NCBI GenBank assembly: GCA_017499595.2
Contig: CM039007.1
Span: forward strand, 1,364,001 to 1,428,000
Reading direction: 5' to 3'
DNA length: 64,000 bases
Source: Psilocybe cubensis
Taxonomy: Eukaryota
Shown: piece after piece, positions 30,553 through 48,860 of the stretch
Position numbering within the stretch: position 1 is the stretch's first letter
Layout of the letters: each line of letters opens with the position of its first letter
Notes under the pieces: generated by a model
Told to the model about the DNA's origin: nothing
The model's database searches: none
The model's input: the letters and a program-made list of their open reading frames with translations, nothing else
Program-made: the position numbers and the translations under genes

Positions 30553-31426
30553 ATGAAGGTCAGCATTTCAATTTACCCCCTATCCTTTTTTTGCGATGAG
30601 AAGGAGAAGTTTGGGAAGGACCTATCTCAAGTCAGCAAAGAATTGTCGGCGAGTCTTCAATCTTCAACGCTATTTCATTTTTTTGTTACCGTCTGTTGTT
30701 GTAAACTGGAGTCGGAATGCTGACGACTATCGGTTATCTGCATAGGTCCAATTGTGAGACTTTTCGAGCCTGAAGGTGTACTTTGTGCTATTTGATCGAA
30801 CACTACCCACCGAAGTCAAGAAGGAAGATATTGTTGTGATAGAGAAGATCAGGAGTGACCCGGCACGCCACGCAAGGCCACGCACTGTTCGTACTTGTCC
30901 TATCTGGTCGGGTCGGAGTATCGGCCGTAGGTAAACATCCCTTCTATGTTTGAATAGGGGTCCATCCGCCCGATGGAGTGCTTTGGACATGGGACAGTGG
31001 GATGTGCAGCGGACGTCATGGTTAGAAGGACATTGAGAGGTGTCGACATCCACGGTCAAGTTTCAACAGAAGATCGACGAAAGGGCATATGTAAATTATT
31101 TTATTTCTACGAAATTATTTAGTCCTCTTCAACACGAATCCCCCGTTCCCTCAATGGGTATTATGCATCCAGTATTTGTCTTTAAATTATGTTTGTGATT
31201 TTGCATTGTGTTTCTACAACAACCTTAAGTGAATCGGTAGTTGTCATCTTAACACCTGGACCGCAGGTTCCATTTCGATACCAATTGGTTCTAACTGTCT
31301 AAAGGAATTGCAGCGCTCTTTTCGGCATAAAACACTGTAGCAAGTTCTACGATTTGTTATTTACCGACGGACGATGGTGCGGGCGCTTAGCGCTTAAGCC
31401 GCATCACTCGGGTAGCATTTGAGCAT

Positions 31427-32325
31427 TATGGAAAGCCGGAAGAGCGAGGTGCCCAGACACAAACCAAACATCGTCCGGCAGGTATGCCGAGTGATCGATA
31501 GGCAACACACAATCCCGCTATGCCTGAATGACTTCCGACACCCTGCACCGAGTCCACTATACAAATAAGTATATTCCATTACATACTTAGGTATGCTATT
31601 TTTTGCCCTCTATCGTTTAGTTCTGCCCTTGAAGAAAGGCAATAAATTCAATATTGTTGCATGACTAAGCTGACCGCGATATTTGGGCCTTGGCTAGCAC
31701 AACGATGATACGAGAGGAAGTGAACTAGGACAGGTAAGCTGTTTTTAAAAAGAGCCTATTTCCCAATTAACCCTCTTGTATCTCTTTCTTTGTCTACTTC
31801 TTTTGAACACCTTATTTATACAGTATAAATGCAGCTATGTAGTAGCTAGAGAACCGGTGTCGAGTACAGAAATACAGAGTACTTTAATTTGTCTATTCGA
31901 CCTCTAAGCATCATTTTTGAATATTTTCCGTGTGCCGCTAAGGAATCGCTGTTACTTTCAGAGTCACATTAAAAAACTTGCAACTGACGCAACACCTTTC
32001 TCACAGGCCATAACTAAATAATAGAGGGCAAAAGATAACTCGAAAAGTCGGCTTCGACGCAATTACCTGCCATGCCAGTAACCAGTAAATTTGCTTGATA
32101 TTGTGTACTAATGTAATAATTATGTGTGTATCCAATTTACCTACCCATGGCAGGTAATACGTAAAGAATGTAACGGAATATATTTATTTGTATAGTGGAC
32201 TCGGTGCAGGGTGTCGGAAGTCATTCAGGCATAGCGGGATTGTGTGTTGCCTATCGATCACTCGGCATACCTGCCGGACGATGTTTGGTTTGTGTCTGGG
32301 CACCTCGCTCTTCCGGCTTTCCATA
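31427..32325. mobile_element. Non-autonomous TIR element (MITE-like, IS3EU-type ends), 899 bp
   Basis: 142-bp TIRs (31427-31568 / 32184-32325) starting TATGGAAAGCC. 6-bp TSD GAGCAT at 31421-31426 and 32326-32331. AT-rich non-coding interior. Confidence 0.93.
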
Positions 32326-32386
32326 GAGCATGAACCTCAGCCCGCCCCGGATTCATTTTTAAAAGTTTGGAAATGGGTCGTTTATC

Positions 32387-32439
32387 TATGGAAAGCCAGA
32401 CTGATCTGCTCAATGTTTGGCTCATGCCGCGTGATGGCC
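32387..32439 (+). repeat. Left TIR (53 bp)
   Basis: TATGGAAAGCCAGACTGATCTGCTCAATGTTTGGCTCATGCCGCGTGATGGCC is the exact reverse complement of 45645-45697. Confidence 0.97.
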
Positions 32440-32803
32440 TTTGTAAATTAAACAATAAATAAATAAATAGTCATTTTGCTTTATAAATCAAGGTGTATCA
32501 CGATGTCACCGTGACTGATTAAATATTTGTTCGGTACTGAATGTGTAGAGCACAACTCGCTGCAGAGTACTTTCAGTATTGTTCACATACCTTCATATTT
32601 TTGCTCCTATAAATTACTTTTAATAATTAAGAACCAAACCTCCCGCCCTATGGAAACCCATAGAACTTTAGAACATTGATATCAATTTGAAATGTCACGA
32701 CAGGAGTAGGTGAATAGGAGTCCATTGAACCGATGGATGACTTGGACACTTTTATTCCTTAACCATTTCCACGATTATCCTGCTTTATTCACCATTTTCT
32801 ATT

Positions 32804-35561
32804 ATGAACAAGCCAACTGGAGATTATGAGGCCGAGTTTACATCGGAGCAGAACATGCCAGTTCAATGTAATCGATGCAAACAGCAATTTGCACCGGGTA
32901 CCCGGCTCCAATGGATGCATAATAAGCATCAAGGCGAAGGGTGTTACCTTTGTGGCTCATGCTACGAGTACTATTTATCGAAGAAAACTACGATACGTCG
33001 TGATAACAATCAGGGTCACAGTTAGTCTATCTTTAATATTTATTGTTAATTGACTTTATAATCTTTATTAGAGTCCGAAATAGCAGCTCGTAATGTTAAA
33101 GCTTTGCCGGTTGCTTCAGCTGCCGCTCACGTTGGTCGTGGTGAGTAATGTTTAATCTTTGGAATAATGGTTTCTCATTTAAATTGAAAATTAATAGTAG
33201 ATAATGCTGCAACTTCCGAAGCAGCTGTAGTCCAGAAGCATATTGCTGCAGCGCAGCGTGATGGTAAGTTAACCAACTATCCGGTAATGTCCAAATCTGA
33301 ATAATAATTAGAGCGCCTTGCACCTGTTGTTGCTGTGGGAAGAAATATTACACAAAGTGTTGCATATGGTTCTCCAGTCACAAATAGGCCTGCTCGACAA
33401 CAAGGCGTTAGCTCCTTTGGAGCTCTGTCTGGTCCTGGATCGACTGTTGTGAATGTTGGTCTTAAAGCCAAATCGCTTACCTTTCCACAAAAGGATTTAC
33501 TCAATCCGGGCTATCAAGAAGCACATGGATTTTATAACGAGATGCGCCAACATTTTGCGGCTATGGCGTATAGCTCCGTAGCCAATGCAGAGCTTGTAGT
33601 GGTCAAAGTTTGGCTTTCTGTCCGTGTTCCGACCAAAAAAAGCCCAGTTCATATCGCTGTAAGTAATTTGGTTCTTATTTCTATGATATATTCAGCTTAA
33701 TATTGGTATATTTTAGGGTCTTCATGAGGCCGTTTCAAATATTCCAGTTCATATAGGTCTAACTGATCTTAAACGGGTAATGTATTATGCTTTACTTCCT
33801 CAATTTTTGGAATGGTCAAAGGGGTTTCCTTTGCGTATCAATGACTGTGTTGTTAGGAATAAGTTATGGGTTGAACTTATTCCAAAACAGCCAGATGTTG
33901 ATGCTATATCGGAACACTTTTTCAGTTTCAAAGGTCGGAATAAGCTTTCAAAGATTTTTACTCCGAAGCAAGGAATTGAACTATACCTTTGTATTACTCA
34001 CCGCCTTTATGAGTCTATAATAGACCATATTACGGAGCCAAAGGAAACTTCTCATCGGCGGAATGATGAAATGCAGGTAAGTATTTTACTAGGTTTCTTT
34101 CGTAATGAGAATGACTAATATATTTTAAAGCCTTCAGCTTCGCTTCATGGAAGTATAGCATCTAAGGCTGTAAAGCGCAAATATTGGGAATCAGATGTTA
34201 GTAAACATTTTTGTTCTACTTACGACCACAGACTTACTGCAATTTTAGAATTTTGAGGCTGATCCAGTAGAGGGTCCATCACTTCAGCATACAGCAGATG
34301 AGCTAAAAAATGCACTTCAGCTTCAAGTCCCACCGCGCAAAAAAAATATGAAATCGTTATGTAAGTTTTAAATCTTTTTCTATGTTTAAAGTTAGAAAAT
34401 GTACTAAATTCATGTTTTTTTATAGTTCAGACAGTTATTGAAGATGTTTCGTTCTTCAAACTACCACCTCCAGTTTCATTCAGCGACTTGGTTAAAAACC
34501 CAGATGAGCTTCAAAATCCCCAGCACTTTGCACCAATGAATGCAACTATTTCCTATGATCCTTCAGCTATACCGTTTAAAGGAGCTTTTAAATTGGCTCG
34601 CGTGGGATATACTTCTACGCCCTTTCTCGGCAGTCGACTTTCAAATACTTGTATTTGTATCAAGCAAATATTTGGTGGTATTGACCCAGTAACAGACAAG
34701 CCTATTGTTTACGAGGGTCAAACTCAGGCGAAAAAGGTCAGCATTGAATTGAACTGTCTTGGTTGGGCATCTGCTCTTATGGAACTCGTCTATCAGTAAG
34801 CTTTTATTCTCAAATATACTAAAAAGATTCCAATTGCACTAATGCATGGTAAATTTATTAGGTTTATTCAAAGGAAAAAGCGCACCAGAGGAGTGCCTCC
34901 TTTTACTATTCCGGTTATGCGCTACGTCAACTCGGGTCTTGCTATTTCCAAGACCAACAATGCCAATGTCTACCTTTTGGAAGAATACATTGAAAGCAAA
35001 TCTCCTACTGGTGATGCATGGTTTGTGAAATATCTCAATAACAGCTCAGCACACCCCGTTTATTTCGCGAATCCGGAACAAAATGAATGGTCACAATTCC
35101 TCTCGTTTGCACAACACATTCAATATATTGAGACAAAGGGACTTGCCTTTGTTTCTGATTTTCAAGGCACGTATATCTTGTTTACTAAATTGTTACTTTT
35201 CTAACTAGTGCAATTCCTGATTATTATAGGCGGACGAACCCTTCTAACAGATCCTCAAATTATAACCCATCCGTCAGTAACCAGTTACTAATTTACATAT
35301 AGCGGTAGCTGATATTAGCCTTATTGTTTTAGCTCAATACCAGGCCTTATATTTGGTGACGGAAACACAAAATTTGAAACATTTGCTCTCGAGCACGATT
35401 GTAACAAATTTTGTCAATTTTTTGGACTTCCTAAAATTGACCGACCTCGTATCAATCTGGCCGACATTCCACCGCTAGTGGAATCGGATTCACTTCCCAG
35501 CCAAATTCGTCGTCAGAAAAGCGATTCCGGGAGTGCAGATATGGAATTATCAGAGGATTAA
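32804..35561 (+). CDS. Alpha-kinase (eEF2K/MHCK-like atypical kinase) with N-terminal CxxC...CxxC putative zinc finger, transposon-borne
   Basis: Exons encode CNRC..CGSC, FKGAFKLA, CIKQ, YLLEEYI, FVKYLNN, FAQHIQY, VSDFQG, LTDPQI, FGDGN and HDCNKFC..GL. The start codon is uncertain. Stop TAA at 35559-35561. Confidence 0.87.
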
Positions 35562-36199
35562 TAGCTTTCTTCAGACATGCTCTTAAATTGCTGAAGTCTT
35601 GTGTGCCATAATAAATGAATTGTGTGACAAAACTAATATTCTAAACAATGATCCTAGTAAATAAAATGATACACAGAGCGATCAGACAAAACTAGCAGCA
35701 CGGCAAGCCAATGCTAGATACCGTCCTGCTCGAAGACGCGACTTTGTAACTAAATGTGACGTGACTCGATTTTGTCACAGGCTCTTGGTTGATTATTCTG
35801 ACGTGTCTTAACTTGTGCTTTGTCGCCTCCCCTCCACTGATGCTCTCTCTGGCAACACTAAGAGGTTCACCGGTGTTTTTGAAAGCCTGCTGCTCACTTC
35901 ATAACACCAAGGATCATCCCTGGGCCAGGGTTATGGTGTGAGCAGCAGTTAATCAAACACAGTGGTGCCACAGGGTGTTCTTTACTGCCGTCCATGCCAC
36001 AACAAGCAGCCTGTTCAAACCAGCAACAAGGGAAAGGTGGAGGGGGTAAAGGGGAGGCCCATGAAATGGGGAATCCATAAGGTGTGTAACCTGCCATTTT
36101 CAGTGGCAAACATCACTTCCAACATCTCTATGAATAGGGCCCTACTTGCCCCCACCCCTCCCTCACAGTTTGCACCAATTAAGACGTCGGCGGGCATGT

Positions 36200-36600
36200 C
36201 TCTGCCGCCGCCGTGTTCCTCCGTTCGACGAGCAGCTTAAGCTGCTCGTTTCTGCCGCCGCCGCCCTCCTTCGTTTGACGAGCAGGAGCGCCGCTGCCGC
36301 CCTCCTCCGTTCGACGAGCAGCTTATGCTGCTCGTTTCTGCCGCCACCGCCCTCCTTCGTTCGACGAGCAGCTTAAGCTGCTCGTTTCTGCCGCCGCCGC
36401 CCTCCTTCGTTCGACGAGCAGCTCCTGCTCGTCTCTTGCCGCCGCCGCCCTCTCCTCCGTTCATGCTCGTTTCTGCCGCCGCCGCCTCCTCCGTCTGTTC
36501 GTCTCTTGCCGCTGCCGCCCCCTCCTCTGTTTGACGAGCAGCTTATGCTGCTCGTCTCTGCTCGTACAAGACGACGAGCAGTAACCTCGGCATTGCTGCT
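36200..36600. repeat. CpG-rich tandem array, ~50-bp unit with a 22-bp palindrome
   Basis: ACGAGCAGCTTAAGCTGCTCGT or close variants at 36228, 36314, 36364, 36414 and 36534, separated by (GCC)n-CTCCTTCGTTCG tracts. Confidence 0.9.
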
Positions 36601-37080
36601 TGTTTCGCCGCCTCCCGTCCCACCCATGTTACGACAAGCAGCGCCGACGTTGCAATTCATCCCGCCCCACCGCCCAGGTCATATCTACGAGACGACGAGC
36701 AGCAACTGTGAGGCTGCCGATTGTCTCGCTGCCTCACCGTGGCCCATCCATGAACCTACGAGCAGCTTTGCGACTGCTGCTCATCCCTCCACCCCAACGT
36801 CTCACCCTGTCCGAGCAGCGCAAAGAGGCGCGCGCGCAATGCCGCTCTTGTGTTGATGAGAGCGGCATTGCTGCTGCTACTCGTCCCGCCTCCTCCCAAC
36901 AACGCGCATTGACATAGCGACTCAACAGTGGCCCACCTTTCCTATCAACGACCAGCTGCTTCGCGCAGCTGGTCTGTGTCCGAGACTACAGCCGCCGCTG
37001 CCGCCGGTGTGTCCCGCCATCCCCGACGACTAGCATTCCGCTTCCACCGCCTCCATCGACGACCACCAGCACGAGGCAGC

Positions 37081-37530
37081 TGTCAGGGTTTCTCCAGTTT
37101 CCCCTCTTTATCTTCACAGAATTATCTTATCCTTTCATTATCTTATCAATTATCTGATTAGATAGTTTATTTCTTTCATCACAGCCTTCTTGTTCCACTT
37201 TTTTCTAGTAAATTCTATATGATTCCTAGTCTTACTCATTCTTTTTCTATATGATGTCACTTTTATTCTTTAACCTTCCTTTATGATGTAATGTAGGGAA
37301 TATTCTAGAATAGCTGTAGAGTATAAATACTGGACTTGTAGGTAGCTGTAGCTTCAGCTTCAATCTCTTAGGATATCCACTATCATTGGTGTGATCTCTT
37401 AGAACCATTGAATCTCTCTCACTCTCTTATTCTCTCTTTGCTCTCTTACTCTCTCTCTGCTCTCTCTCTCTCTCTCTTGCTTAATCTTTGTTGGTGGCCT
37501 TGTCACACTGATTATAGTGTTGCCCTGACA
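37081..37530 (+). repeat. 5' LTR (450 bp)
   Basis: TG...CA ends with 8-bp terminal inverted repeats, TATAAATA at 37322-37329. Appears identical to 43024-43473. Confidence 0.97.
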
Positions 37531-37532
37531 GA

Positions 37533-37543
37533 AGATTGAAGCT
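37533..37543 (+). promoter_or_regulatory. Primer-binding site, self-priming type
   Basis: AGATTGAAGCT is the exact reverse complement of AGCTTCAATCT at 37356-37366 in the LTR. It lacks the TGG start of a tRNA-type PBS. Confidence 0.75.
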
Positions 37544-38035
37544 CTCTCAAGACAACTCCACCATCTCTCTTTCAACACCAAACTCTTCACCTCTTCAACC
37601 TCTTCAACACCATCACCTCAACCTTCTTCCTCCACTTCCAACCCACCAACCTCTTCATCAACCTCTTCACCAATCTTCTTACCAATCTCTACATCTCCAC
37701 CAATCTTCAACATCCTCCTCAAAACCTTTCCTCAAGACCTTTCCTCAAGACCTTTGGCTCATCATCTTTCCTACTCTCTGTTGTGTGCTGTGTGTGAACT
37801 TAGTAGATAGGGATACCAACTGTTGGGGCAGACACAGTCCTACTAGTGTTCTGTTTTTGGTGGTCTAGGAAATATCCAGTAACCCTGTGATCCTAGGTTT
37901 AGAGCCCTGAGTGGTGTGACAACTGGGTATCCAGTAGATAGATATTTTTTTTAGAATACTTAGTATAGTTTCAAGGGCACTTTCAGTAGATAGCTTCTCC
38001 CACACACACATCAGAGAGCCTACCTACCCCTACCC

Positions 38036-39145
38036 ATGGACATGGACCCCTCCCAATTGCCTCCCACCACTCCTTCTGTGGAAGAGCTCATGCATCAGGT
38101 CCAGCTCCTTACCCAAGAGTTGAATTTTCTTAGACAGCAGCAGCAGTCATTATCCACTCCACCACACCCTCAGCAACCAGTCAGTCAGTCACCATCACCA
38201 CCACCACCACCACCACCTGCTGCTCTAGATATTCACTCTTTCCCTACCCCTCATGTTGCCCCTTCCTGTTCACACTCTGCCATTAAAGTCTCACCTCCAG
38301 ATCCATTTGATGGTTCTATGGAGAAGGCAGAAAACTTCCTCAGTCAGCTTAAATTATATTTCTATGGGAAAGGGATTACAGATGACTTTCAGAAAGTTAT
38401 TTGTGCTCTATCTCATATGAAAGGAGGTACTGCTGGGAAGTGGGCATATGAGAAGACTAAAGTAATAGACAATGCTCAGTCCCAAGAAGGTCTTTGGGCT
38501 GACTTTGTTTATGAATTTAGGGAAGTGTTTGCAGATCCAGACCCCTCCAACACAGCTAAGCATAAAATGCACATGCTCAAGCAAGGCAGACAGACTGCTG
38601 ATGAGTATGTTGCTAGCTTCAGGGCTCTGATCTCAGATACTGGGTATAATGATGCTGCTTTGGTAGACCAATTCAAGGCTGGGCTTAATGAAAATCTCAG
38701 GAATGCAGTCTACTATGTTCCTGACATGCCCAAAACCTTGGATGGATGGATTAAATGGAGTACTAGGCTAGATAGGCAGTGGAGACAGAGTGAGGCCTTT
38801 ACCAAGTCTCTTTCCTCCTCCTCTTCTTCTCCCTTCCTTAAAGCCCCAACTCCCAAGGCTGTTCCTAAGCCTACTCCAAATCCTCCAGTCTTTTCCAACA
38901 GCAGCTCAAGGACCTTTGGTGCTCAGGCAAAGCAACCAGATGTAGTTCCCATGGAGGTTGACTCTGGATGGAAGTCAGTTAGGCCAATTGTTTGCTTCAA
39001 GTGCAGAAAGCCTGGTCATAAGGCTGTAAACTGCAGGTCATCAGTTAACATCAATGCTATGACCCATGAAGAACTGGCTGACTACTTTGGGAAATTAATC
39101 TTGGAAGGCAAGGAGCAGAAAGATGAGGAAAAGAAAAATTTTTAG
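38036..39145 (+). CDS. gag: Gag (retrotransposon capsid with CCHC zinc knuckle)
   Basis: 369-aa ORF with PDPFDG, LKQG...EY..F and CFKCRKPGHKAVNC. Confidence 0.95.
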   Translation: MDMDPSQLPPTTPSVEELMHQVQLLTQELNFLRQQQQSLSTPPHPQQPVSQSPSPPPPPPPAALDIHSFPTPHVAPSCSHSAIKVSPPDPFDGSMEKAENFLSQLKLYFYGKGITDDFQKVICALSHMKGGTAGKWAYEKTKVIDNAQSQEGLWADFVYEFREVFADPDPSNTAKHKMHMLKQGRQTADEYVASFRALISDTGYNDAALVDQFKAGLNENLRNAVYYVPDMPKTLDGWIKWSTRLDRQWRQSEAFTKSLSSSSSSPFLKAPTPKAVPKPTPNPPVFSNSSSRTFGAQAKQPDVVPMEVDSGWKSVRPIVCFKCRKPGHKAVNCRSSVNINAMTHEELADYFGKLILEGKEQKDEEKKNF

Positions 39146-39153
39146 AAGCACCA

Positions 39154-42100
39154 TTGGTGAAAGACATGTCCCAATGGAATAGATTTAATGTACTAGAAAA
39201 TGAAATTGACAGACTTGATCCTCAGTCTTCAGATTCTGGTGCAGAAATCATGTCTTCTTCTTCCTCTCTTTCTACCTTCCCTGAAAAGATCTACATCCTC
39301 AACCATAATCCTAAAACCTCTACCCATTTGTCTGTCATCTTAAAGACAATGGACACAGAGAAAAGGTTATCTGTTGATGCTTTGCTTGATTCTGGAGCTA
39401 CTGGCCTCTTTCTGCATTCTGGTTTTGTGAAGTATCATAATCTCAACACAAGGAAACTTCCTAGAGCCATTCCAGTCTATAATGTTGATGGTACTCTCAA
39501 CAAGAGTGGCTCTATCCATGAGGAAGTAGACTTAATTATGGTACACAAAAACCATACAGAAAGGGCCACCTTTGCTGTTTGTGACTTGGGAGACAAATCT
39601 GCTATCATTGGACATACTTGGCTTTGGCACCATAATCCAGATGTTGATTGGAAGACAGGGGATGTCCAGTTTATTAGATGTCCCTCTGACTGCCAAATGG
39701 AAGCCAAAAGAGCCAGAAGAAAGAGGCAGAGAATAGCTGCAGTCAAAAGGAGGAAACTCCCTCAATTTGATGAAGAAGAAGATGATTCTATTGAAGATTC
39801 TTCTAATTCTGAGATTGAGCCTGAGGATAGAATTTTTATCTCATACCTTCATCCTCAGAAGCAGTCTATTAATGCTACTTCTACTATGTCTCAAAGATTA
39901 GCAGAAGAGTCTCATCAGCAAGCTGATTCCCCTAAGAAAACCTTTGAAGAAACTGTTCCTAAGCACTATCATCAGTTTAAAGGTGTTTTTTCAAAGGAAT
40001 CTTTTGATAGGCTACCAGACAGAAAGCCTTGGGATCATGCTATTGAGCTGAAACCTGGTTCTGAACCTTACAGATCCAAGATTTATCCTCTTTCTCCCAA
40101 TGAACAAAAGGAACTTGATGCCTTTTTAGAGGAAAATCTGAAGTCTGGCAGGATTAGACCCTCCAAGTCACCTATGGCCTCCCCTGTATTCTTTGTCAAG
40201 AAGAAGGATGGATCTCTTAGGCTTGTCCAGGACTATAGGAAACTGAATGAAATGACCATCAAGAACTCCTACCCCCTTCCATTGATTTCTGACATCATCA
40301 CCAAACTCAGCAAAGCCAAATACTTCACCAAACTTGATGTTAGGTGGGGATTTAACAATGTCAGAATCAAAAAGGGAGATGAATGGAAAGCAGCCTTTAG
40401 AACCAATAGAGGGCTGTTTGAACCATTGGTCATGTTCTTTGGTTTAACCAATAGTCCTGCTACCTTCCAAACTATGATGAATGATATCTTTATTGAGCTC
40501 ATTGATGGAAATGTTGTCATTGTCTACATGGATGACATTTTAATTTTCACTGAGACTCTTGATCATCATAGAGAGGTAGTCAAGCAAGTTCTGCAAATCC
40601 TAGAACAGAACAAACTCTACCTTAAAGCAGAGAAATGTGAATTTGAAAAGGAAAAGATTGAATATCTTGGACTAATCATTTCACAAGGCAGGATTGAGAT
40701 GGATCCTGTCAAGGTAGAGGGAGTTTCTAAATGGCCTGAACCTGAAAATGTCAAGGATGTCCAATCATTCTTGGGATTTGTTAATTTTTATAGAAGGTTT
40801 ATAGAGGATTTTGCAGACATTGCTAAGCCCCTTCATGAATTGACAAAGAAAGGAACAGTCTGGAGATGGAGTCTTAGACAGCAGGAAGCCTTTGACCAAT
40901 TAAAGAAGAAAGTCACTTCTTCACCTGTCTTGATTTTCCCTGATGATAACAAGCCATATAAAGTTGAAGCAGACAGTTCAGATTATGCTACTGGGGCTGT
41001 TTTATCTCAGGAAGGATCAGATGGGAAATGGCATCCTGTAGCCTTTATGTCTAAGAGTCTATCTGAAGTAGAAAGGAATTATGAGATCCATGACAAAGAG
41101 ATGCTGGCTATTATCAGAGCACTAGATGAATGGAGACATTATCTTGAAGGAACCCAACATTCCTTTGAGATTTGGACAGACCACAAAAACTTAGAGTACT
41201 TTATGGTTGCCCAAAAGCTTAGCAGAAGGCAAGCCAGATGGTCACTCTTCCTGTCCAGATTTGATTTTACTCTTCATCATAGGCCTGGTAAAAGATCTCT
41301 TAAGCCAGATGCTTTGTCTAGGAGACCAGATCATAAAAAGGGGGAGAATGATAACCAAAATGTAGTTCTCCTCAAACCTTCCTACTTTAAAATCCAGGCT
41401 CTCAAGCAGGGTCATGCTACCATTACTGGTGCAGAAAATGATCTTCTTAAGAAGATTAGAGAAGCTAAGGAGATGGATGAAAAGGTGGTCAAGGCAGTTC
41501 AGGAGCTCAAGAAATCTTCAACCAAGAAGATTGAAGGACAGGAATGGTCAGAAGAACAAGGTCTTATTCTCTATAGGGGGAAGGTGTATGTTCCCAAGGA
41601 CAAAGATCTTAGAAGAAAGATTGTGGAACTGCACCATGATGCCTTCATTGCTGGACATCCAGGGAAATGGAAGACAATTGAGCTAGTCTCTAGGAATTAT
41701 TGGTGGCCAGGAATGTCACATTTTATTGCAGCCTATACCAGAGGTTGTGATAGATGCAACAGAACCAAAACCTTTCCAGCCAAACCTCTTGGTCTTTTAA
41801 TTCCTACTGAGATTCCCTCTGATGTCTGGCAATGCATCTCTGTGGACTTTATTATGGGGTTACCAGAATGTCAAGGGTATAATGCCATTATGGTGGTTGT
41901 GGATAGACTTAGTAAAATGATCCACATTATCCCTACTACAGATGAAGTCACTTCTGAAGGGACAGCCAGACTATACAGAGATTATGTCTGGAAACACCAT
42001 GGCTTACCCATTAAAATTCTATGTGATAGAGGTCCACAGTTTGTCTCAAGGTTTATGAAAGAACTCAACTCAATACTTGGTATCCAGACAGCCTCATCTA

Positions 42101-43023
42101 CAGCCTACCATCCCCAAACTGATGGTCAGACTGAAAGAGTTAACCAAGAAATTGAGCAGTATCTTAGACTCTTTATAAACCATAGACAAGATGATTGGGT
42201 TGAATGGTTAGCTCTAGCTGAATTCTCTTATAACAATAGAGTTCAGGCTTCAACCAGGCAGACACCATTCATGCTCAATAATGGCAGACATCCCAGAATG
42301 GGCACTGAACCCCTTAGAGATAGTAAAATGGACACTGTGGATACCTTTGTGAAAAATATGGAAGAAGCCAGGAAAGAAGCAGAGTCTGCACTTAGAAAAG
42401 CTGCTGATGATATGGCTAAATTCTATAATAGACACAGAGGTACTCCAACTCAGTACAAAGTTGGGGATTTGGTATGGTTGGATGGCAAGGACCTCAAAAC
42501 TGATAGGCCCTCCAAGAAATTGGATGATAAAAGATATGGGCCTTACAAAATTACCAAAGTTATTAGCCCTAATGCCTATGAGCTTAAGCTGCCATCTACC
42601 ATGAAAATCCATCCAGTGTTCAATGTGGTTAAACTTCTACCTTATCATCCAGATATTGTAGGAAGAAAGCCTCCTTCTAGACCACCTCCTGTCATTCAAG
42701 GAGAAAATCCTGAGTGGGAAGTTGAATTTATCAAGGACAGCAGACTTTTTAGAAACAAACTTCAATATTTGGTCAAGTGGAAGAACTATCCTAATGAAGA
42801 ATGCACTTGGGAGCCTGCAGAGCATTTGAAAAATGCTTCTAAGGCTATCAAGGACTTCCATGCCAAACATCCTTCAGCACCTAGAAGGATTTCTGCTGTG
42901 ACCTTTGATAGACTTTCTTTCACTCCTATTATTAACTTTACTGAACCTCCTCCTCTTCTTAAACCCTCTAAACTAACCCATCCATGTGCACATTGTGGAA
43001 AATGTGCCTTAGAGAGGGGGTGA
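39154..43023 (+). CDS. pol: Pol polyprotein (PR-RT-RNaseH-IN-chromodomain), probably expressed by -1 frameshift
   Basis: 1289-aa open ORF: LLDSGAT protease, YMDD RT, ADSSD RNase H, HH..GH..C..C and D,D,E integrase, GPY motif, chromodomain WEVE..YLVKWKNY...TWEP. Confidence 0.98.
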   Translation: MVKDMSQWNRFNVLENEIDRLDPQSSDSGAEIMSSSSSLSTFPEKIYILNHNPKTSTHLSVILKTMDTEKRLSVDALLDSGATGLFLHSGFVKYHNLNTRKLPRAIPVYNVDGTLNKSGSIHEEVDLIMVHKNHTERATFAVCDLGDKSAIIGHTWLWHHNPDVDWKTGDVQFIRCPSDCQMEAKRARRKRQRIAAVKRRKLPQFDEEEDDSIEDSSNSEIEPEDRIFISYLHPQKQSINATSTMSQRLAEESHQQADSPKKTFEETVPKHYHQFKGVFSKESFDRLPDRKPWDHAIELKPGSEPYRSKIYPLSPNEQKELDAFLEENLKSGRIRPSKSPMASPVFFVKKKDGSLRLVQDYRKLNEMTIKNSYPLPLISDIITKLSKAKYFTKLDVRWGFNNVRIKKGDEWKAAFRTNRGLFEPLVMFFGLTNSPATFQTMMNDIFIELIDGNVVIVYMDDILIFTETLDHHREVVKQVLQILEQNKLYLKAEKCEFEKEKIEYLGLIISQGRIEMDPVKVEGVSKWPEPENVKDVQSFLGFVNFYRRFIEDFADIAKPLHELTKKGTVWRWSLRQQEAFDQLKKKVTSSPVLIFPDDNKPYKVEADSSDYATGAVLSQEGSDGKWHPVAFMSKSLSEVERNYEIHDKEMLAIIRALDEWRHYLEGTQHSFEIWTDHKNLEYFMVAQKLSRRQARWSLFLSRFDFTLHHRPGKRSLKPDALSRRPDHKKGENDNQNVVLLKPSYFKIQALKQGHATITGAENDLLKKIREAKEMDEKVVKAVQELKKSSTKKIEGQEWSEEQGLILYRGKVYVPKDKDLRRKIVELHHDAFIAGHPGKWKTIELVSRNYWWPGMSHFIAAYTRGCDRCNRTKTFPAKPLGLLIPTEIPSDVWQCISVDFIMGLPECQGYNAIMVVVDRLSKMIHIIPTTDEVTSEGTARLYRDYVWKHHGLPIKILCDRGPQFVSRFMKELNSILGIQTASSTAYHPQTDGQTERVNQEIEQYLRLFINHRQDDWVEWLALAEFSYNNRVQASTRQTPFMLNNGRHPRMGTEPLRDSKMDTVDTFVKNMEEARKEAESALRKAADDMAKFYNRHRGTPTQYKVGDLVWLDGKDLKTDRPSKKLDDKRYGPYKITKVISPNAYELKLPSTMKIHPVFNVVKLLPYHPDIVGRKPPSRPPPVIQGENPEWEVEFIKDSRLFRNKLQYLVKWKNYPNEECTWEPAEHLKNASKAIKDFHAKHPSAPRRISAVTFDRLSFTPIINFTEPPPLLKPSKLTHPCAHCGKCALERG
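43011..43023 (+). promoter_or_regulatory. Polypurine tract
   Basis: AGAGAGGGGGTGA lies immediately upstream of the 3' LTR and overlaps the pol stop codon. Confidence 0.85.
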
Positions 43024-43473
43024 TGTCAGGGTTTCTCCAGTTTCCCCTCTTTATCTTCACAGAATTATCTTATCCTTTCATTATCTTATCAATTATCTGA
43101 TTAGATAGTTTATTTCTTTCATCACAGCCTTCTTGTTCCACTTTTTTCTAGTAAATTCTATATGATTCCTAGTCTTACTCATTCTTTTTCTATATGATGT
43201 CACTTTTATTCTTTAACCTTCCTTTATGATGTAATGTAGGGAATATTCTAGAATAGCTGTAGAGTATAAATACTGGACTTGTAGGTAGCTGTAGCTTCAG
43301 CTTCAATCTCTTAGGATATCCACTATCATTGGTGTGATCTCTTAGAACCATTGAATCTCTCTCACTCTCTTATTCTCTCTTTGCTCTCTTACTCTCTCTC
43401 TGCTCTCTCTCTCTCTCTCTTGCTTAATCTTTGTTGGTGGCCTTGTCACACTGATTATAGTGTTGCCCTGACA
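43024..43473 (+). repeat. 3' LTR (450 bp)
   Basis: Direct repeat of 37081-37530, followed by TSD GCAGC. Confidence 0.97.
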
Positions 43474-43760
43474 GCAGCTGGGTTGTGTCGCCGCTGCCGC
43501 TGCCGCCCTGCCCCGCTCTAGCCACCATCGACAATCACCAGGGCGAGGCTGCTGGGTCGGCCGCCGCTGAGGGGGAAGAAGAAGACGGCACAGCTGTGTT
43601 TGCATTTCCATTCGCATTTGCGTGTCCACCAACCCTTGATTGGCGAGGAAGTATCTACTTTCTATTGTATTTTAGCACAATTAACTGTTTTTTATGCCCA
43701 ATAACTGATCATTGTGTAGTTGATACTAAGACTAAGTAATTTATAGATTTACTGTGTTAT

Positions 43761-45488
43761 TTATTCTTCATCTGTATCTGTAAATGAAGCATAGTTTCTA
43801 TCGTCTGAGTGTTCCTGCAACCCAACAACTTTATCACCTTGTCGCAGGTCTTTCATTCCATCAAGTAAAGATATTTCCTCTTGATCAATACCTTGTTCTT
43901 CAGCAACACGCGCAGTCAGAACAACTTCAATTTCTTCATCAACCTCACCACAAAAGCGCTCGAGCATGGTACGATAAATTTCCCAAAAACTGGCCATTGT
44001 TACCTCAGGAGTCCCAATGTCCTCATAAATCTTTCGGGCTCGTTCGTCAAAGGCAGGTGGTGTAAGTTGAAAAACTGGGTGATCTTTGGGTGCATACTCG
44101 TTTTCAAGGTCATCAAGAAGGTCTTCTGTAACAGGAATCTATTCAATGTAAATTGAATTTCTGGTCTATAGCATCTACACAATAAACATACCTTAAAGTC
44201 AAGAGCATTGAATTTTTCGGGCTTGGTGCGAATTAACAGAGGAGCACCGAGTGGGAGAATTTTCTTGCGGTCTGAACGTGGTGCCGTTCGATTTTTGGTA
44301 TTTGCCCACTTGTCAAGCTCGTTTTGCAGCCATGGAATTGCGATCCAGCGGAAAACCAAGCTATGTAAACAATAATTAAAACAGATATCACAAAAAATTA
44401 TGATCAAACATACTTTTCAACAACATTGGTAACTTCATACCATCCAGAAACAACTCCTTGTTGGAACAAATCCTCATAACCAGGAGCAAAGTCACGACGA
44501 AATACCGACCAATTGATTTCAGGCTTGATGTTGGCTTTATGCCGAAGCCACCTATGTTGCAGAGTCCCAACAAGAGTAGGATCAAGCCGGTGTCGAGCCA
44601 AGGTCTGAATGTTGGCTACACCAAAATTTTCTGATCCTGGGTCACTTTGCGTCGTAAGAGGAATAGCTGTTTAAAGTTAACTTTATTCAGTAAAAATAAT
44701 AGAAGAGTAAAATTAAACCTACCGCCATATTTGCGAGCCGTATCAATAAAATAACCAGCAATTAGACAGGGATTCTTGTTAGTCCACCATACCTTTAACC
44801 AATTCAGGAATCCAGTGAATGGATCTGCACTGTGGTGAAGCCACAGTCCAAACCGAGGACCCCATTTGTCATGTTGGTCTTGGGCCCAAGTATCGTTAAC
44901 ACCAGCAGCATGGTAGCGTCTGCGTTTGAATCTACGAGCCTTCCGAGCCTTTAGCGCATCGGGCTCAGTCATTTGAAGATAATTATAAACAACACTTCTG
45001 GTGTAGACTATATTTGAGCAAGTTCTTCCAAAAATGATAATATTCAATTCATACCGAGGAACTCTGATATTAAACTCAACCCGTAGCTGCTTTCTAATCA
45101 TTTCCACACCTCGAGTAGGGAATCTAGTTCGCATTTCCTGAATGGCAGGGGCAATTGACTCCAAGGTGTGCTTTTGTTGTCGAGTACTGAGAAGATCCCA
45201 CTTTTTTCTAAGCCTTTTAATGCTCGACACACTAGAAGTAGATTAATTGATACGTATTCCCGTGTCCGTAGAGGTAATAACAACGCACCTTAGGCCATAC
45301 AATTCTGTATTGTAATGGTCTTTCATATTGTCCTGAATCTCACGATCGTTCTGACCTAGATCATAGTAGAACTGTACGTATTCCTTGATTTCATCCTCAG
45401 GGGCTTGTGGATCAATAGATGACTTCAGTTTCTATTACCTATTGTACAAAACACAAGACTTACGAAGTGGTTTATGCTGGTTCGGCAT
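43761..45488 (-). CDS. IS3/IS481-like (IS3EU-type) DDE transposase with N-terminal Clr5/HTH-like region, intron-containing
   Basis: MPNQHKPL|PPEDEIKEYVQFYYDLG..|SIKRLRKKWDL..RRRYHAAGVNDTWAQDQHDKW (D1)..TQSDPGSEN (D2)..NIKPEINWS (E). Starts about 210 bp inside the right TIR. Confidence 0.88.
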
Positions 45489-45644
45489 TGATTTTAATAC
45501 AAAAAGAATAGAAGAGACGGCGCTGAGTAGGGATTTTCAATTGTCGCCCTATCACGATGAGAAACAAGGTAGGAAAATATATTTCATTCAGAATAGGAGT
45601 CTACGGATAACACAAGCATGTTTTAGCTAGACGTTAGCAGGACC

Positions 45645-45697
45645 GGCCATCACGCGGCATGAGCCAAACATTGAGCAGATCAGTCTGGCTTTCCATA
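45645..45697 (-). repeat. Right TIR (53 bp)
   Basis: Reverse complement of 32387-32439, followed by TSD TTTATC. Confidence 0.97.
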
Positions 45698-46393
45698 TTT
45701 ATCAGCCGAAGATCAAGGCCAGGCCTTGGATGGAGGGCATATTCAACAAAATGAACAAGATGCCGATCAGGGTACTAGGAGATACAGCCGTAGAGGGTCG
45801 AGACTGAGGCCAGGGAACTATGCGATTCTCAAATAAGTAATAAGTGACGTAATACACAACAGCGTGTTTACGGCAGCGAGCTTGACTGCGCTCACAATGA
45901 AACTTCTACCACTCACGCTCAAGCTCTCAAAGTTTCGACCAAGGCTGATCAGGGGCTGATCAGGGGCACCTAGTTCGTTTATAGAACATTATGGCTTCGA
46001 ATTCACATTTATGCTCAGCGATGATGAAGTTTGAACCCCCCACCGATTTACGCAGCAGATGATGCTGAACAAAACAGGACTCATCAGCGGAGACCACAAC
46101 ATGGAAATTAACCTCTGTTATGCCATTCGTTATAATATGCAAGCGCGACCAGCATGTTGAAGGTTGGATGAAAGTCTCACTGCTGTTGTTCGGTAGGCAT
46201 TGATTGCACACCAAAAGGAGCGATCTTGGCCCTCTTGGCGATATATAACCAAAATTTCTCCTTGCGGCTTACTTGTGGACTTCATAATTGAACGCGACAT
46301 TTACCCCAAACTCATTCTCAAAAATACCCTTTCTTTTTATTTTCTTTCTTATTTTCTACTTCATAGGCGTTAGGCTGCAGAGCAAAAGGCGAA

Positions 46394-48860
46394 ATGCTTG
46401 CCTCCGCTTTTCTGCTGCTTCCAAGCATTGTTTCAACGGCTCGAGCGGTCACTGTGTATGGCCAAATACCGCTTGCTCAAACTGCGTCGGGTACATCAGG
46501 CATTCCAACAATTCCAACACTGGCGGCCTACGATAAAACGCAGCTTGTCCCTCCAGCAATCGTTGAACCTGCCCCCGCCAATGCGTACACATTAACGCTT
46601 CAAGACAATGCGGCGGCAGTAGACGGCCTTTCAATTCCTCACGTTGGGCCTGGATTTTGGGGTTTCTCTCTTGAAATGTCGGTGCTCAATCAAGTCTGTG
46701 AGTATACAGTCAATCATCGCGCTGTCCCATCGATTTACTCATTGGACATACGAACTTTCAGTGGGCAAAAACTCGTATGTTTTTAACATGCATGACAATG
46801 TCCTACAACTTATTTGCATCATTCATAGATCACTCATTCAGGTCCCGTTTTTAAACCTTATGTCCAATCTTATCGAACGCTCAGGTGGTGTTCTAATTCG
46901 AATCGGCGGGAACACTCAGGAATTTGCGACAATGGTACCATTCCTGGAAGGTGGAAAAACATTCGACAAGGAAGATTCAGGAAGTACACAGACGGTATGT
47001 GATCAGAATTCACCTTGCTGAAATACCGTCTGAGGTTCCCTAGACCAAAACTCCCGCTGTCCTTTATACAATCGATATGTTCTACATGGCGGCCAATATC
47101 TCGTCAATGTTAAATGTCAAATGGTTTTTCGGTCAGTGTCTAAAATCATTGAGTGTTCACCACACCATAATCAAATTGTGTAAAAATAGGCATACCTTTC
47201 AATGATTCAGTAAACTGGCGTTTGACCATTGCAGAAGAGGCTCAGAGCATTGTCGGTGACAACTTGATTGCCCTTCAGGCTGGAAACGAACCTGATTTCT
47301 ACGAGGAGTATGTACTTTTACCTTTCATCAAAATGACTTTTGTTCTGAAACCATTGAAGATTCGGGCGTCGTCAAACTTACTCTCCGGAAATGTATACTC
47401 AGGAAGTCGAGCAACTTGTTGCTGTTATTGACGCCAATGATCGTATTCCAATCAAGAATATGTTACTGGGACCAAGTGTCGCCACAGGACCATGGACGCC
47501 TGAACAAGTTTGGGAAACAAATTTCATTGAACGCCTGAAAGACAGATTGCATGCCTTGACTGTTGAGCAGTAAGTTCAGTAAATTTTAAGGCTATCGCGT
47601 TTTTATTCATTGTGGTAAAAGCTATCCCAACAACAATTGCGCAGCTGCATATAACAACGGAGGAAGAGTTGTAATTCCACAAGAAATTTTTCCTGAATAT
47701 CTTTCGCATACAGCTGCAGTTGAACTTGTTCGACCATACTGGAATTCCGCAGCGCTTGCCGTGGAAGCAGGAAAACCGTTATACATGTTCGAGACTAATA
47801 CGGCATCTTGTGGTGGCTTCGCTGGAGTCAGCGATTCGTATGGTGCCGCTCTCTGGGCCATGGATTATGGATTCCAGATGGCGTATGCCAACTTTACTCA
47901 CGGAATGCTCCACGTCGGTGGACAGAACGTATTCTACAATGTGCGCATTCATTGATGCAAAATGCTATCGTGGCTTTATCCTGATCGTCTGTGACCTTTA
48001 TCCAGCCTTTCACTGCTCCCCCCACAAATCAATCCTCATACAACCAGTGGACTGCAGGAGCGGTCTATTACTCCACCGTCGTACTTGCAGAAGCGTTTGG
48101 AAAGAGCAACACATCTAGGATTGTCGATCTTTTGGGAAACGCAGGCTCGGTTTATACGCCATCCTATGCCATATACGAACAGGAAAAGCTTAGCAAAGTC
48201 GCTTTATTCAATTACATGGATGATGCGTCAGGTGCTCACGACCTGAGTGTTACTATTTCCGTACCAACAGGAGTACCAACAACGGTTGAAGTCAAGTAAG
48301 CAGCGTTTAGGATCTTGTTACCTCATATCAGAGTTGACAAAGAACAGATATCTTGCCGCAAGTTCGGTTTCTTCCAAGGATAATATCACTTGGGCGGGCC
48401 AGGTAAGGAAATATCGCCCTGCCTGTCGCAAGTACGAATGTTGATCTGTAGCCTCTAGACACTCGGTAACCAGTATGAAGTCGATGGACGATTCAAAGGC
48501 GAGCTGAACGTCACCACCATCAACTGCGATACTGTAGCAAGCACCTGCATAATTCCAATACCCGCTCCTGGCTTTGCCCTTGTCTTCTTCAATAATGCTG
48601 CAGAACAATTAACCATCGGCCAGGCCACTCAAACGTTCGGGACGACCGCTTTCAGCAGGGGCCACAACACAGCGACTGTCGATCCTGCTGTGCTTCAGAC
48701 ATCAAACGGACACTCTGGAGCCAACCGAGACTCCTATAGGAGTACGAGTCTTGGAAGTGCAAGCTCTGCCGAAAAGAAAGTCGCCATGATTCCAGGTGTC
48801 ATTGCGTTATTTTCGGTGATTGTAGGCAGCTTTTGGGTAGCGCGAAATCTTGTGCAGTAG
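46394..48860 (+). CDS. Glycoside hydrolase family 79 (beta-glucuronidase-like), secreted, with C-terminal hydrophobic/GPI-like tail
   Basis: Signal peptide, IRIGGNTQE, catalytic QAGNEPDFY, and MFETNTASCGGFAGVSDSYGAALWAMDY. Confidence 0.9.

What the first reader, a model, noticed from the sequence alone, without database searches (positions are those of the whole stretch)
32387..45697. Complete IS3EU-like DNA transposon carrying an intact alpha-kinase gene
Seen: perfect 53-bp TIRs and a 6-bp TSD (TTTATC) enclose two convergent intron-containing genes, an integrase-like DDE transposase (-) and a zinc-finger + alpha-kinase (+), each starting near one TIR. Known: TAY..RTA termini, 6-bp TSDs and an IS3-like transposase are the described hallmarks of the IS3EU superfamily. 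Alpha-kinases are atypical kinases of the eEF2K/MHCK family. Inference: the symmetric layout and intact motifs suggest the kinase is a standing component of the element rather than a decaying captured fragment. That would make this a mobile kinase system, and possibly a route for alpha-kinase family expansion in mushrooms. I cannot confirm whether this pairing is already described.
Basis: partly seen in the sequence, partly recalled or inferred. Interest (0 to 1): 0.85.

Follow-up and report, generated by a model that had tools for sequence, protein, structure and literature searches.

The report
Mushroom jumping gene carrying a kinase
This is a real, recently mobile DNA transposon of a magic-mushroom genome that always travels with its own atypical protein kinase gene, a pairing that is old and conserved in fungi but has already been mentioned in print.

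Summary
Perfect 53-bp inverted ends (TATGG..CCATA) and a 6-bp duplication (TTTATC) bound window 32387-45697. Inside lie an intact 725-aa zinc-finger/alpha-kinase gene (+) and an intact 463-aa DDE integrase-type transposase gene (-).

A related 899-bp MITE lies 61 bp upstream.

The proteins are 463/463 and 711/712 identical to neighbouring Psilocybe cubensis genes.

Two other sequencing runs show the precise empty site, so this is an insertion polymorphism.

The kinase is a standing component:
- All 4 annotated P. cubensis transposase copies sit beside a kinase copy.
- 36 of 80 metagenome loci with a related transposase also hold the kinase (25 of 33 loci of 5 kb or more).
- Four of those loci are complete elements with different 6-bp duplications.
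- Kinase and transposase trees show the same clades.
- Between families, kinase dN/dS is 0.12-0.21, like the transposase.

The features match the IS3EU superfamily. A 2025 paper already states that TET-carrying IS3EU families of other fungi have transposase and alpha-kinase genes in opposite orientations. This is therefore a new member of a known kind. What the kinase does is unknown.

The parts
32381..32386 (.). Left copy of the 6-bp target-site duplication TTTATC
   Evidence: Read directly. Only a single copy is present in the empty-site contig and reads.
32387..32439 (+). Left terminal inverted repeat, 53 bp, starts TATGG
   Evidence: 100% complementary to 45645-45697; unique in the window.
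32804..35561 (+). Zinc-finger / beta-grasp-like / alpha-kinase gene, 11 exons, 725 aa, intact. Exons: 32804-33020, 33072-33140, 33201-33263, 33312-33658, 33717-34092, 34138-34196, 34249-34360, 34426-34795, 34874-35166, 35230-35272, 35333-35561.
   Evidence: Spliced model gives one open frame. It is 711/712 identical to P0106. Pfam Alpha_kinase matches. The predicted fold matches solved alpha-kinases. The 43-nt exon 35230-35272 carries LTDPQI; it is missing from the NCBI models but present in UniRef protein P0263.
36201..36529 (.). G+C-rich array of 50-bp and 33-bp tandem units with a 22-nt palindromic core, in the spacer between the two stop codons
   Evidence: G+C 0.51 in this 2-kb bin. Function unknown.
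37081..43473 (+). Nested Ty3/Gypsy (chromodomain) LTR retrotransposon. LTRs at 37081-37530 and 43024-43473 are identical; 5-bp duplication GCAGC at 37076-37080 and 43474-43478. It is a later insertion, not part of the DNA transposon.
   Evidence: Open gag and pol frames carry Ty3_capsid, RVT_1, RNase H, rve and Chromo domains. Contigs and reads that join 37075 to 43474 show copies without it. Protein P0259 reads across the site.
43761..45488 (-). DDE integrase-type transposase gene, 7 exons, 463 aa, intact. Exons: 45488-45464, 45403-45289, 45231-45055, 44997-44723, 44666-44414, 44360-44192, 44138-43761.
   Evidence: 463/463 identical to P0001. Pfam rva_4 matches. The predicted fold matches IstA, TnsB, MuA and retroviral integrases. 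The acidic residues in DQHDKW, TQSDPGSEN and KPE are invariant in 15 relatives.
45645..45697 (-). Right terminal inverted repeat, 53 bp, ends CCATA
   Evidence: A contig of run X1 runs from 45669 into the right flank.
45698..45703 (.). Right copy of the target-site duplication TTTATC
31427..32325 (.). Neighbouring 899-bp non-coding relative (MITE-like). 162-bp inverted ends 98% alike, the same terminal TATGGAAAGCC, own 6-bp duplication GAGCAT at 31421-31426 and 32326-32331.
   Evidence: The empty site (31420 joined to 32326, 6 shared letters) is seen in X6 and in 16 reads of X12.

Best explanation

Shown:
- Its DDE integrase-type transposase gene is intact.
- The element has 53-bp TATGG..CCATA ends and made a 6-bp target duplication on insertion.
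- It is absent from the same site in two other sequenced isolates, so it moved recently.
- The second gene encodes an N-terminal CxxC..CxxC zinc finger, a small beta-grasp-like domain and a complete alpha-kinase domain.
- This gene is an ancestral part of this fungal transposon lineage. It has diverged in step with the transposase through three different gene arrangements and is kept under purifying selection.

Inferred:
- The transposase recognises the ends and moves the element by cut-and-paste.
- Selection on a transposon gene acts through the element's own spread. The kinase protein is therefore most likely an element-encoded helper, a second subunit or regulator.
- My best guess is that the zinc finger brings it to the element or to chromatin, where it phosphorylates the transposase or a host chromatin or repair protein to permit transposition or avoid silencing.

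The retrotransposon in the middle is a later, unrelated insertion that hit neither gene.
For: Element and mobility:
- Inverted ends and duplication.
- Precise empty site in X6 (one 19,255-bp contig whose flanks differ by 8 and 4 letters) and in X12 (19 reads). The right junction is present in X1.

Transposase:
- rva_4 matches; HTH_21 matches 3 of 15 relatives.
- Fold hits to IstA (E 5.9e-4), TnsB, MuA and RSV integrase.
- Invariant acidic residues.
- No cysteine in the first 145 residues, so no HHCC motif.

Superfamily features in print: 6-bp duplications, TA..TA ends, and TIRs over 30 bp ending TAYGG..CCRTA (PMC10045372 and PMC12730594, passages seen).

Kinase as a standing part:
- Four transposase genes (all 463 aa) and four kinase genes lie on the same four contigs with neighbouring locus tags.
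- 36 of 80 metagenome loci carry the kinase: 12 convergent, 9 tandem, 15 divergent. That is 25 of 33 loci of 5 kb or more.
- Complete elements with matching 6-bp duplications enclose both genes in L002, L018, L043 and L070.
- Distances of the two genes correlate, r = 0.62, with 0 of 2000 permutations as high.
- The same clades appear in both trees. The three layouts need 3 changes on each tree, against a shuffled mean of 12.6.
- In five pairs with dS 0.6-1.8, kinase dN/dS is 0.12-0.21 and transposase dN/dS is 0.10-0.24.
- Of 13 listed coding differences among copies or strains, 8 are synonymous.

Kinase intact:
- Pfam Alpha_kinase matches.
- Fold hits to ChaK 1IA9 (E 4e-10), eEF2K and MHCK A.
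- The motifs CIKQ, QHIQY, DFQG, LTDPQI, GDGN and HDCNKFC are all present. Their key positions are conserved across the 18 aligned homologues: K494, Q622 and H623 invariant; Q639, G640, L645 and D647 in 90% or more.
Against: - No expression data. The one possible RNA run laid (X10) covered only the flanking genes.
- What the kinase does is pure inference; no substrate or partner is known.
- The kinase is not needed in cis. One of the four P. cubensis kinase models (P0259, 551 aa) lacks the kinase domain although its transposase is intact. Run X6 holds an internally deleted copy, 34304 joined to 44193.
- 44 of 80 loci show no kinase. Most have too little flank on the relevant side. Three cases are not explained that way. 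L008 has 10 kb downstream without kinase and without a matching right end. Its relatives L027 and L053 have over 4 kb upstream without kinase. A separate 7-locus clade has none within up to 2.6 kb. Loss in some lineages is therefore not excluded.
- L016 and L033 have perfect TATGG ends, but their flanks do not match as duplications.
- dS above 1 is near saturation, and the alignments come from tblastn segments, which favour conserved parts.
- Near-identical copies give dN/dS of 0.2-1.15.
- Direct similarity to Repbase IS3EU reference transposases could not be tested.
Confidence: 0.85

Rival explanations
1. The kinase is a host gene captured recently by this one transposon family. It would be a passenger with no role in the element's life, as in Pack-type gene capture.
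For: DNA transposons of fungi do pick up and exchange host-derived genes. TET/JBP genes have moved between transposon superfamilies (PMC12730594, passages). One P. cubensis copy has lost the kinase domain.
Against: The kinase is found with related transposases in 36 of 80 loci that are only 31-69% identical to this transposase. Its tree mirrors the transposase tree. Its dN/dS between families is as low as the transposase's. The same pairing is reported for rust and Tuber IS3EU families. There is no kinase at the empty site.
Confidence: 0.04
2. The kinase is kept because it acts on the host for the element's benefit only indirectly. It might interfere with genome defence or silencing, or trigger transposition under particular cell states. 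It would not be part of the transposition machinery and would have no contact with the transposase.
For: Fungal transposons carry anti-silencing-type enzymes such as TET/JBP, and in TET-carrying IS3EU families that gene sits between transposase and kinase. Alpha-kinases in other organisms are signalling enzymes (recalled). The gene order relative to the transposase changed three times without loss, so tight co-expression is not required.
Against: Nothing tested here separates this from the helper-subunit reading. The conserved N-terminal zinc finger fits a nucleic-acid or chromatin contact as well.
Confidence: 0.3
3. The two genes and the ends are an inactive relic. The identical ends and open frames would reflect a recent segmental duplication, not transposition.
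For: No direct observation of a jump. Copy number is low: 4 annotated pairs, and read depth on the element is about 1.6 times the flank in X12.
Against: The site is precisely empty in two other runs with a single TTTATC, while both still hold the element elsewhere. The four copies lie on four different contigs of 3.05-4.15 Mb. All four transposases are full length and differ at only 4-10 of 463 residues. The neighbouring MITE is polymorphic in the same way.
Confidence: 0.03

Closest known systems
IS3EU superfamily of eukaryotic DNA transposons (Repbase), in particular the TET-carrying IS3EU families of rust fungi and Tuber indicum described in PMC12730594
   Same: 6-bp target duplications; inverted ends longer than 30 bp that end TAYGG..CCRTA; DDE transposase of the integrase/IS3 type without an HHCC zinc motif; a second gene for an alpha-kinase in the opposite orientation to the transposase (passages seen).
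   Different: No TET/JBP gene lies between the two genes here. The host is a gilled mushroom (Agaricales), for which the passages I saw list no IS3EU families. Relatives in metagenome loci also show tandem and divergent gene orders. Sequence relatedness to the Repbase entries could not be tested. The paper's supplementary tables, which list the families, were not seen.
Styx / REP9 element of Zymoseptoria tritici (PMC8232023, PMC10853768)
   Same: A fungal IS3EU-related element with inverted ends, 6-bp duplications, an integrase-type transposase, extra genes, and observed recent mobilisation and insertion polymorphism (passages seen).
   Different: Styx carries four genes, including DUF3716 proteins. 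No alpha-kinase is mentioned in the passages seen. Its host is an ascomycete with repeat-induced point mutation.
PIF/Harbinger-type two-protein transposons (transposase plus Myb/SANT DNA-binding protein)
   Same: A cut-and-paste element that keeps a second, non-transposase protein with a putative DNA-binding module. The Nuwa lineage is said to encode two proteins in PMC12730594. That the second protein is required is recalled.
   Different: An unrelated transposase superfamily with 3-bp duplications. The second protein there has no enzymatic domain, whereas here it ends in a complete kinase.
Alpha-kinase family (ChaK/TRPM7, eEF2K, Dictyostelium MHCK A)
   Same: Pfam Alpha_kinase above the cut-off. 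The predicted fold matches 1IA9, 8GM4 and 3LKM. The lysine, the D-x-Q-G motif, the LTDPQ aspartate, the glycine-rich motif and the H-x-C-x3-C zinc site are present.
   Different: Only 16-19% identity to solved kinases. The N-terminal architecture is different (zinc finger plus beta-grasp-like domain). It is encoded by a transposon rather than a fixed host gene. Activity and substrate are unknown.

Membership tests
IS3EU DNA transposon superfamily | Target-site duplication usually 6 bp | tested here: met
   TTTATC on both sides and a single copy in the empty site. Four related complete elements have matching 6-bp duplications: CGAGTG, TAAAAT, GGCGCT, GGAAAG. Two others (L016, L033) do not match.
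IS3EU DNA transposon superfamily | TA..TA termini; in fungal families TIRs over 30 bp ending TAYGG..CCRTA | tested here: met
   53-bp perfect TIRs, TATGG..CCATA. The criterion is taken from PMC10045372 and PMC12730594 (passages).
IS3EU DNA transposon superfamily | DDD/E transposase of the integrase / IS3-IS481 type, with no HHCC zinc motif upstream of the core | tested here: met
   rva_4 30.2 bits against a cut-off of 26; 15 of 15 relatives match. Fold hits to IstA, TnsB, MuA and retroviral integrase cores. Invariant D146/D149, D206 and E247. No Cys in residues 1-145.
IS3EU DNA transposon superfamily | Transposase groups with Repbase IS3EU/GingerRoot reference transposases in a phylogeny | not testable with these tools
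No named IS3EU protein was among the hits.
IS3EU DNA transposon superfamily | Second gene: alpha-kinase, opposite in orientation to the transposase (stated for TET-carrying families) | tested here: met
   Convergent kinase (+) and transposase (-). The statement is in PMC12730594.
Alpha-kinase family (Pfam PF02816) | Profile match above the curated cut-off | tested here: met
   34.7 bits on exon 34800-35204 and 31.4 bits on P0106, against a cut-off of 21.3.
Alpha-kinase family (Pfam PF02816) | Alpha-kinase fold | tested here: met
   Model pLDDT is about 88-95 over residues 400-700. Foldseek hits: 1IA9 E 4.1e-10, eEF2K 8GM4 E 7.9e-9, MHCK A 3LKM E 9.1e-8.
Alpha-kinase family (Pfam PF02816) | Catalytic lysine, D-x-Q-G, metal-binding Asp in LTDPQ, Gly-rich motif, His/Cys zinc site | tested here: met
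   CIKQ 492, QHIQY 618, DFQG 633, LTDPQI 641, GDGN 658, HDCNKFC 671 in the window's own translation. Their key positions are conserved in the 18 aligned homologues: K494, Q622 and H623 invariant; Q639, G640, L645 and D647 in 90% or more. The roles of these residues are recalled from the ChaK/MHCK literature, not tested.
Alpha-kinase family (Pfam PF02816) | Protein kinase activity | not testable with these tools
   Needs an enzyme assay.
   No hit on the window's protein; 1 of 15 relatives at E = 0.1. Some sources name relatives 'Clr5 domain-containing'. HTH_21, the helix-turn-helix of IS3-type transposases, matches 3 of 15 (best E 9.8e-4).

The most novel reading that the evidence does not exclude
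The zinc-finger/alpha-kinase protein is an obligatory second subunit of fungal IS3EU transposition, and its kinase activity is required for movement. That would make these the first DNA transposons known to depend on their own protein kinase. As a corollary, most of the 'alpha-kinase gene family expansions' reported for rusts and seen in mushroom annotations would be copy numbers of this transposon lineage rather than host signalling genes.
Probability: 0.3. Interest if true: 0.7.

Novelty: new member of a known kind. Interest (0 to 1): 0.4.

Why it matters
For annotation: proteins filed as 'Alpha-type protein kinase domain-containing' or 'Integrase core domain-containing' host genes in mushroom genomes are the two genes of one mobile element. 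These include four gene pairs in P. cubensis and fused gene models in Galerina marginata. Counts of alpha-kinase 'family expansions' should be corrected for this.

For transposon biology: the kinase has travelled with the transposase through deep divergence and three gene orders, under selection as strong as on the transposase. That makes a role in the element's own spread likely, and it is directly testable with a two-plasmid transposition assay.

For the species: the element, its MITE relative and the nested retrotransposon are all polymorphic between isolates. They are therefore recent sources of structural variation and usable strain markers.

Tried and rejected
- No whole genome is held for this window. 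Copies therefore had to be inferred from protein clusters, metagenome loci and sequencing runs.
- Single exons of the transposase gave no Pfam hit; the full-length identical protein did.
- Sequence search of the Protein Data Bank found no kinase or integrase relative. P0106 hit only a weak zinc-finger match, E 0.009, and the A1 profile gave only spurious coiled-coil or ACP hits. Fold comparison was needed.
- Complex prediction with transposase 1-440 and kinase protein 185-700 gave 'no answer' (score 0.00; the tool did not use the alignments). This says nothing either way.
- No RNA holder was listed by the look-up of sequencing runs. X10, guessed to be RNA, covered only the flanking genes and a low-complexity stretch. 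I draw no conclusion on expression.
- Contig word depths of X1 and X6 are 2.5-5 times the flank on the element, but the tool warns that these are not copy numbers. Only the raw-read ratio in X12 (about 52 against 33, or 1.6) is used, and loosely.
- Kojima 2019 (the review cited for 'IS3EU encode two proteins') is not held. I know that statement only through PMC8232023.
- Supplementary tables of PMC12730594, which list the IS3EU families, were not seen. They may already include mushroom families.
- Literature searches: 'alpha kinase' + transposase + basidiomycete gave 0 papers. 'alpha-kinase' + Agaricomycetes gave 2 papers. IS3EU + kinase gave 13 papers, of which I opened 4 with the term kinase (PMC12730594, PMC10853768, PMC3520738, PMC8232023); only PMC12730594 links the two.
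- The search of earlier findings returned nothing on this genome or this element type.
- An early tally of 39 loci with kinase in my notebook was a miscount. The recount gives 36 of 80, which agrees.

Full report
**1. What is in the sequence**

The two arms 32387-32439 and 45645-45697 are 53 nt long and perfectly complementary. A 23-nt probe from the end occurs only at these two places, and none of 100 shuffles gave two matches. TTTATC flanks both arms. The ends read TATGG..CCATA.

The interval is not made of two genes only. Positions 37081-43473 are a complete Ty3/Gypsy-type retrotransposon:
- two identical 450-bp LTRs (TG..CA) and a 5-bp duplication GCAGC;
- open gag and pol frames with Ty3_capsid, RVT_1, RNase H, Integrase_H2C2, rve, SH3_Tf2-1 and Chromo domains.

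It sits in the G+C-rich, repeat-bearing spacer between the two stop codons and interrupts neither gene. Without it the DNA transposon would be 6913 bp.

An 899-bp non-coding element lies 61 bp to the left (31427-32325). It has 162-bp inverted ends, the same first 11 letters and its own 6-bp duplication GAGCAT. The wider neighbourhood holds ordinary host genes: a Dis3-like exonuclease piece and AMP-binding enzymes.

**2. The two genes**

*Transposase (minus strand).* It has seven exons, 45488 to 43761, and encodes 463 aa. It is identical at 463 of 463 residues to P0001, a hypothetical protein of Psilocybe cubensis.
- P0001 matches Pfam rva_4, 'Integrase core domain', above the curated cut-off.
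- All 15 aligned relatives match rva_4. Three also match HTH_21, the helix-turn-helix of IS3-type transposases. Clr5 is not supported.
- The acidic residues in DQHDKW, TQSDPGSEN and KPE are invariant.
- A model with mean pLDDT 81.7 is most like the DDE transposases IstA, TnsB and MuA and like retroviral integrase cores.

*Kinase (plus strand).* It has eleven exons, 32804 to 35561, and encodes 725 aa with no stop. It matches the neighbouring P. cubensis gene product P0106 at 711 of 712 residues.
- The NCBI models skip a 43-nt exon (35230-35272), which follows an intron with a GC donor and encodes GGRTLLTDPQIITHP. A UniRef model of another copy (P0263) includes it, and relatives conserve it.
- Pfam Alpha_kinase is matched.
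- The model has three confident parts: a zinc-finger region at about 20-60, a domain at about 210-340, and residues 400-700.
- The last part matches solved alpha-kinases: ChaK, E 4e-10; eEF2K; MHCK A.
- The middle domain has only weak beta-grasp-like matches, E 0.006 and worse.
- All motifs conserved in the family are present. Their catalytic and zinc-binding roles are recalled from the literature.

**3. Is it mobile?**

I laid four public runs on window 30000-47500.

| Evidence | X6 (contigs) | X12 (raw reads) | X1 (contigs) |
|---|---|---|---|
| Main element at this site | One 19,255-bp contig joins 32380 to 45698 with 6 ambiguous letters: the exact empty site | 19 reads show the same joint | A contig runs from inside the right end (45669) into the flank, so the insertion is present |
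| MITE at this site | The same contig joins 31420 to 32326 with 6 ambiguous letters: empty | 16 reads show the same joint | A contig ends 30 nt inside the MITE, so it is present |
| Element elsewhere | Pieces on the element carry 9-34 other letters | Read depth on the element about 52, against 33 on the flanks | not assessed |

Flank differences in the X6 contig are 8 and 4 letters. Joints from 37075 to 43474 in X1, X6 and X12 show copies without the retrotransposon. All three insertions are therefore confirmed by empty sites, and the main element is polymorphic between near-identical genomes.

**4. Is the kinase a standing component?**

*(a) Within the species.* The 90% cluster of the transposase has four NCBI members, all 463 aa, on four contigs of 3.05-4.15 Mb. 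The kinase cluster has four NCBI members on the same four contigs. Their locus tags are adjacent (three pairs) or one apart (one pair).
- Transposases differ at 4-10 of 463 residues.
- The three full-length kinases differ at 13-20 of about 709 residues.
- The fourth kinase model (551 aa) leaves the kinase gene after about residue 444 and reads on across the retrotransposon insertion site. That copy lacks the retrotransposon and probably the kinase domain.

*(b) Elsewhere.* A Galerina marginata gene model of 1132 aa on a 6-kb contig fuses rva_4, the zinc finger and Alpha_kinase.

*(c) In 80 metagenome loci* that encode relatives of the transposase (31-69% identity), tblastn finds the kinase in 36:
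- 12 downstream and convergent, as here;
- 9 downstream in tandem;
- 15 upstream and divergent.

The kinase is present in 25 of 33 loci of 5 kb or more and in 11 of 47 shorter ones.

On a tree of 76 loci, most kinase-less loci lack sequence on the side where their clade carries the gene (4 loci with too little of the core were left out). The exceptions are:
- L008, with 10 kb downstream, no kinase, and no matching right end;
- its relatives L027 and L053;
- a clade of seven loci with at most 2.6 kb on either side.

*(d) Complete elements.* L002, L018, L043 and L070 have TAYGG..CCRTA ends and matching 6-bp duplications, all different, that enclose both genes. L016 and L033 have perfect ends, but their flanks do not match.

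*(e) Co-divergence.* For 25 loci with at least 150 residues of the kinase domain, pairwise distances of the two genes correlate (r = 0.62; 0 of 2000 permutations as high). Near-copies inflate this measure. Maximum-likelihood trees of the transposase core and of the kinase domain (27 rows each, adding the window and Galerina) recover the same groups. On both trees the three gene orders need only 3 changes, against a shuffled mean of 12.6.

*(f) Selection.* In five pairs with dS of 0.6-1.8, dN/dS is 0.12-0.21 for the kinase and 0.10-0.24 for the transposase. Very young copies give 0.2-1.15, and three distant pairs were saturated. Among the differences listed by read laying in the kinase coding region, 8 of 13 are synonymous. 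That list is cut to the best supported 40 of 565.

**5. What it is and how it probably works**

All testable defining features of IS3EU are met:
- 6-bp duplications;
- TA..TA ends, and specifically TAYGG..CCRTA with long TIRs;
- an integrase-type DDE transposase without an HHCC motif.

The criteria come from passages of PMC10045372 and PMC12730594. Placement among Repbase reference sequences could not be tested.

Movement by the transposase and creation of the 6-bp duplication are inferred from the family. For the related Styx element, new insertions with 6-bp duplications were observed in crosses (PMC10853768, passages).

The kinase's conservation within a selfish element argues that it helps the element spread. 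Whether it acts on the transposase, on the element's DNA through its zinc finger, or on host chromatin or defence is not known. A complex prediction gave no verdict.

**6. Novelty**

PMC12730594 (December 2025) states that all TET-carrying IS3EU families, from rusts and Tuber indicum, have a TET/JBP gene between transposase and alpha-kinase genes that face opposite ways. [quoted passage not shown] A 2015 paper notes that alpha-kinases are 'highly expanded in the rusts', with 79 and 39 Pfam hits in two genomes of its table.

So the pairing is known. What this analysis adds:
- a TET-less, recently mobile family in a gilled mushroom;
- three gene orders;
- congruent trees and comparable selection on the two genes;
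- the point that many annotated fungal alpha-kinase 'genes' are transposon genes.

I found no paper in the searched library that makes these points for Agaricomycetes. The supplements of PMC12730594 and Repbase itself were not seen.

**Verdict.** This is a new member of a known kind, of moderate interest.

Noticed in passing
window 37081-43473: Nested chromodomain Ty3/Gypsy retrotransposon with identical LTRs and open gag and pol frames. Raw-read depth in X12 is about 1500 against 33 on the flanks, which suggests tens of copies; it looks recently active.
   Followed up: partly
window 31427-32325: 899-bp MITE-like element that shares only the terminal 11 nt with the main element. It has its own 6-bp duplication and is absent from this site in X6 and X12. 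Read depth in X12 is up to about 310 against 33 on the flanks. It may be moved by the same transposase.
   Followed up: partly
window 35230-35272: A 43-nt exon that encodes the conserved LTDPQI motif follows an intron with a GC donor. It is skipped in the NCBI gene models of all full-length P. cubensis copies, so those models lack a key catalytic motif.
   Followed up: yes
window 36201-36529: Array of 50-bp and 33-bp units with a 22-nt perfect palindrome (ACGAGCAGCTTAAGCTGCTCGT) in the spacer between the genes. One gene model of another copy reads it as coding. Its role is unknown.
   Followed up: no
window 34304 joined to 44193 (run X6): One contig joins the middle of the kinase gene to the transposase gene with one extra letter. 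This is an internally deleted derivative of the element in another isolate.
   Followed up: no
window 32158 joined to 45646 (runs X6, X12): A joint with 15 extra letters links the inner edge of the MITE's right arm to the inner edge of the main element's right end. It is unexplained and may be a hybrid or another family member.
   Followed up: no
P0068 (Galerina marginata) and P0193: Database gene models fuse the transposase and the zinc-finger/alpha-kinase into one protein. They probably merge two tandem genes of the 'tandem' clade.
   Followed up: partly
window 53858-59622: Two neighbouring AMP-binding enzyme genes on the minus strand, apparently a tandem duplicate.
   Followed up: no
window 7374-7473: A run of 100 N, an assembly gap.
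   Followed up: no
window 30071-30744: Contigs of run X10 skip two GT..AG introns here. So a spliced, probably expressed, host gene lies about 1.2 kb (1244 bp) left of the insertion; the X10 contig reaches 31143.
   Followed up: no
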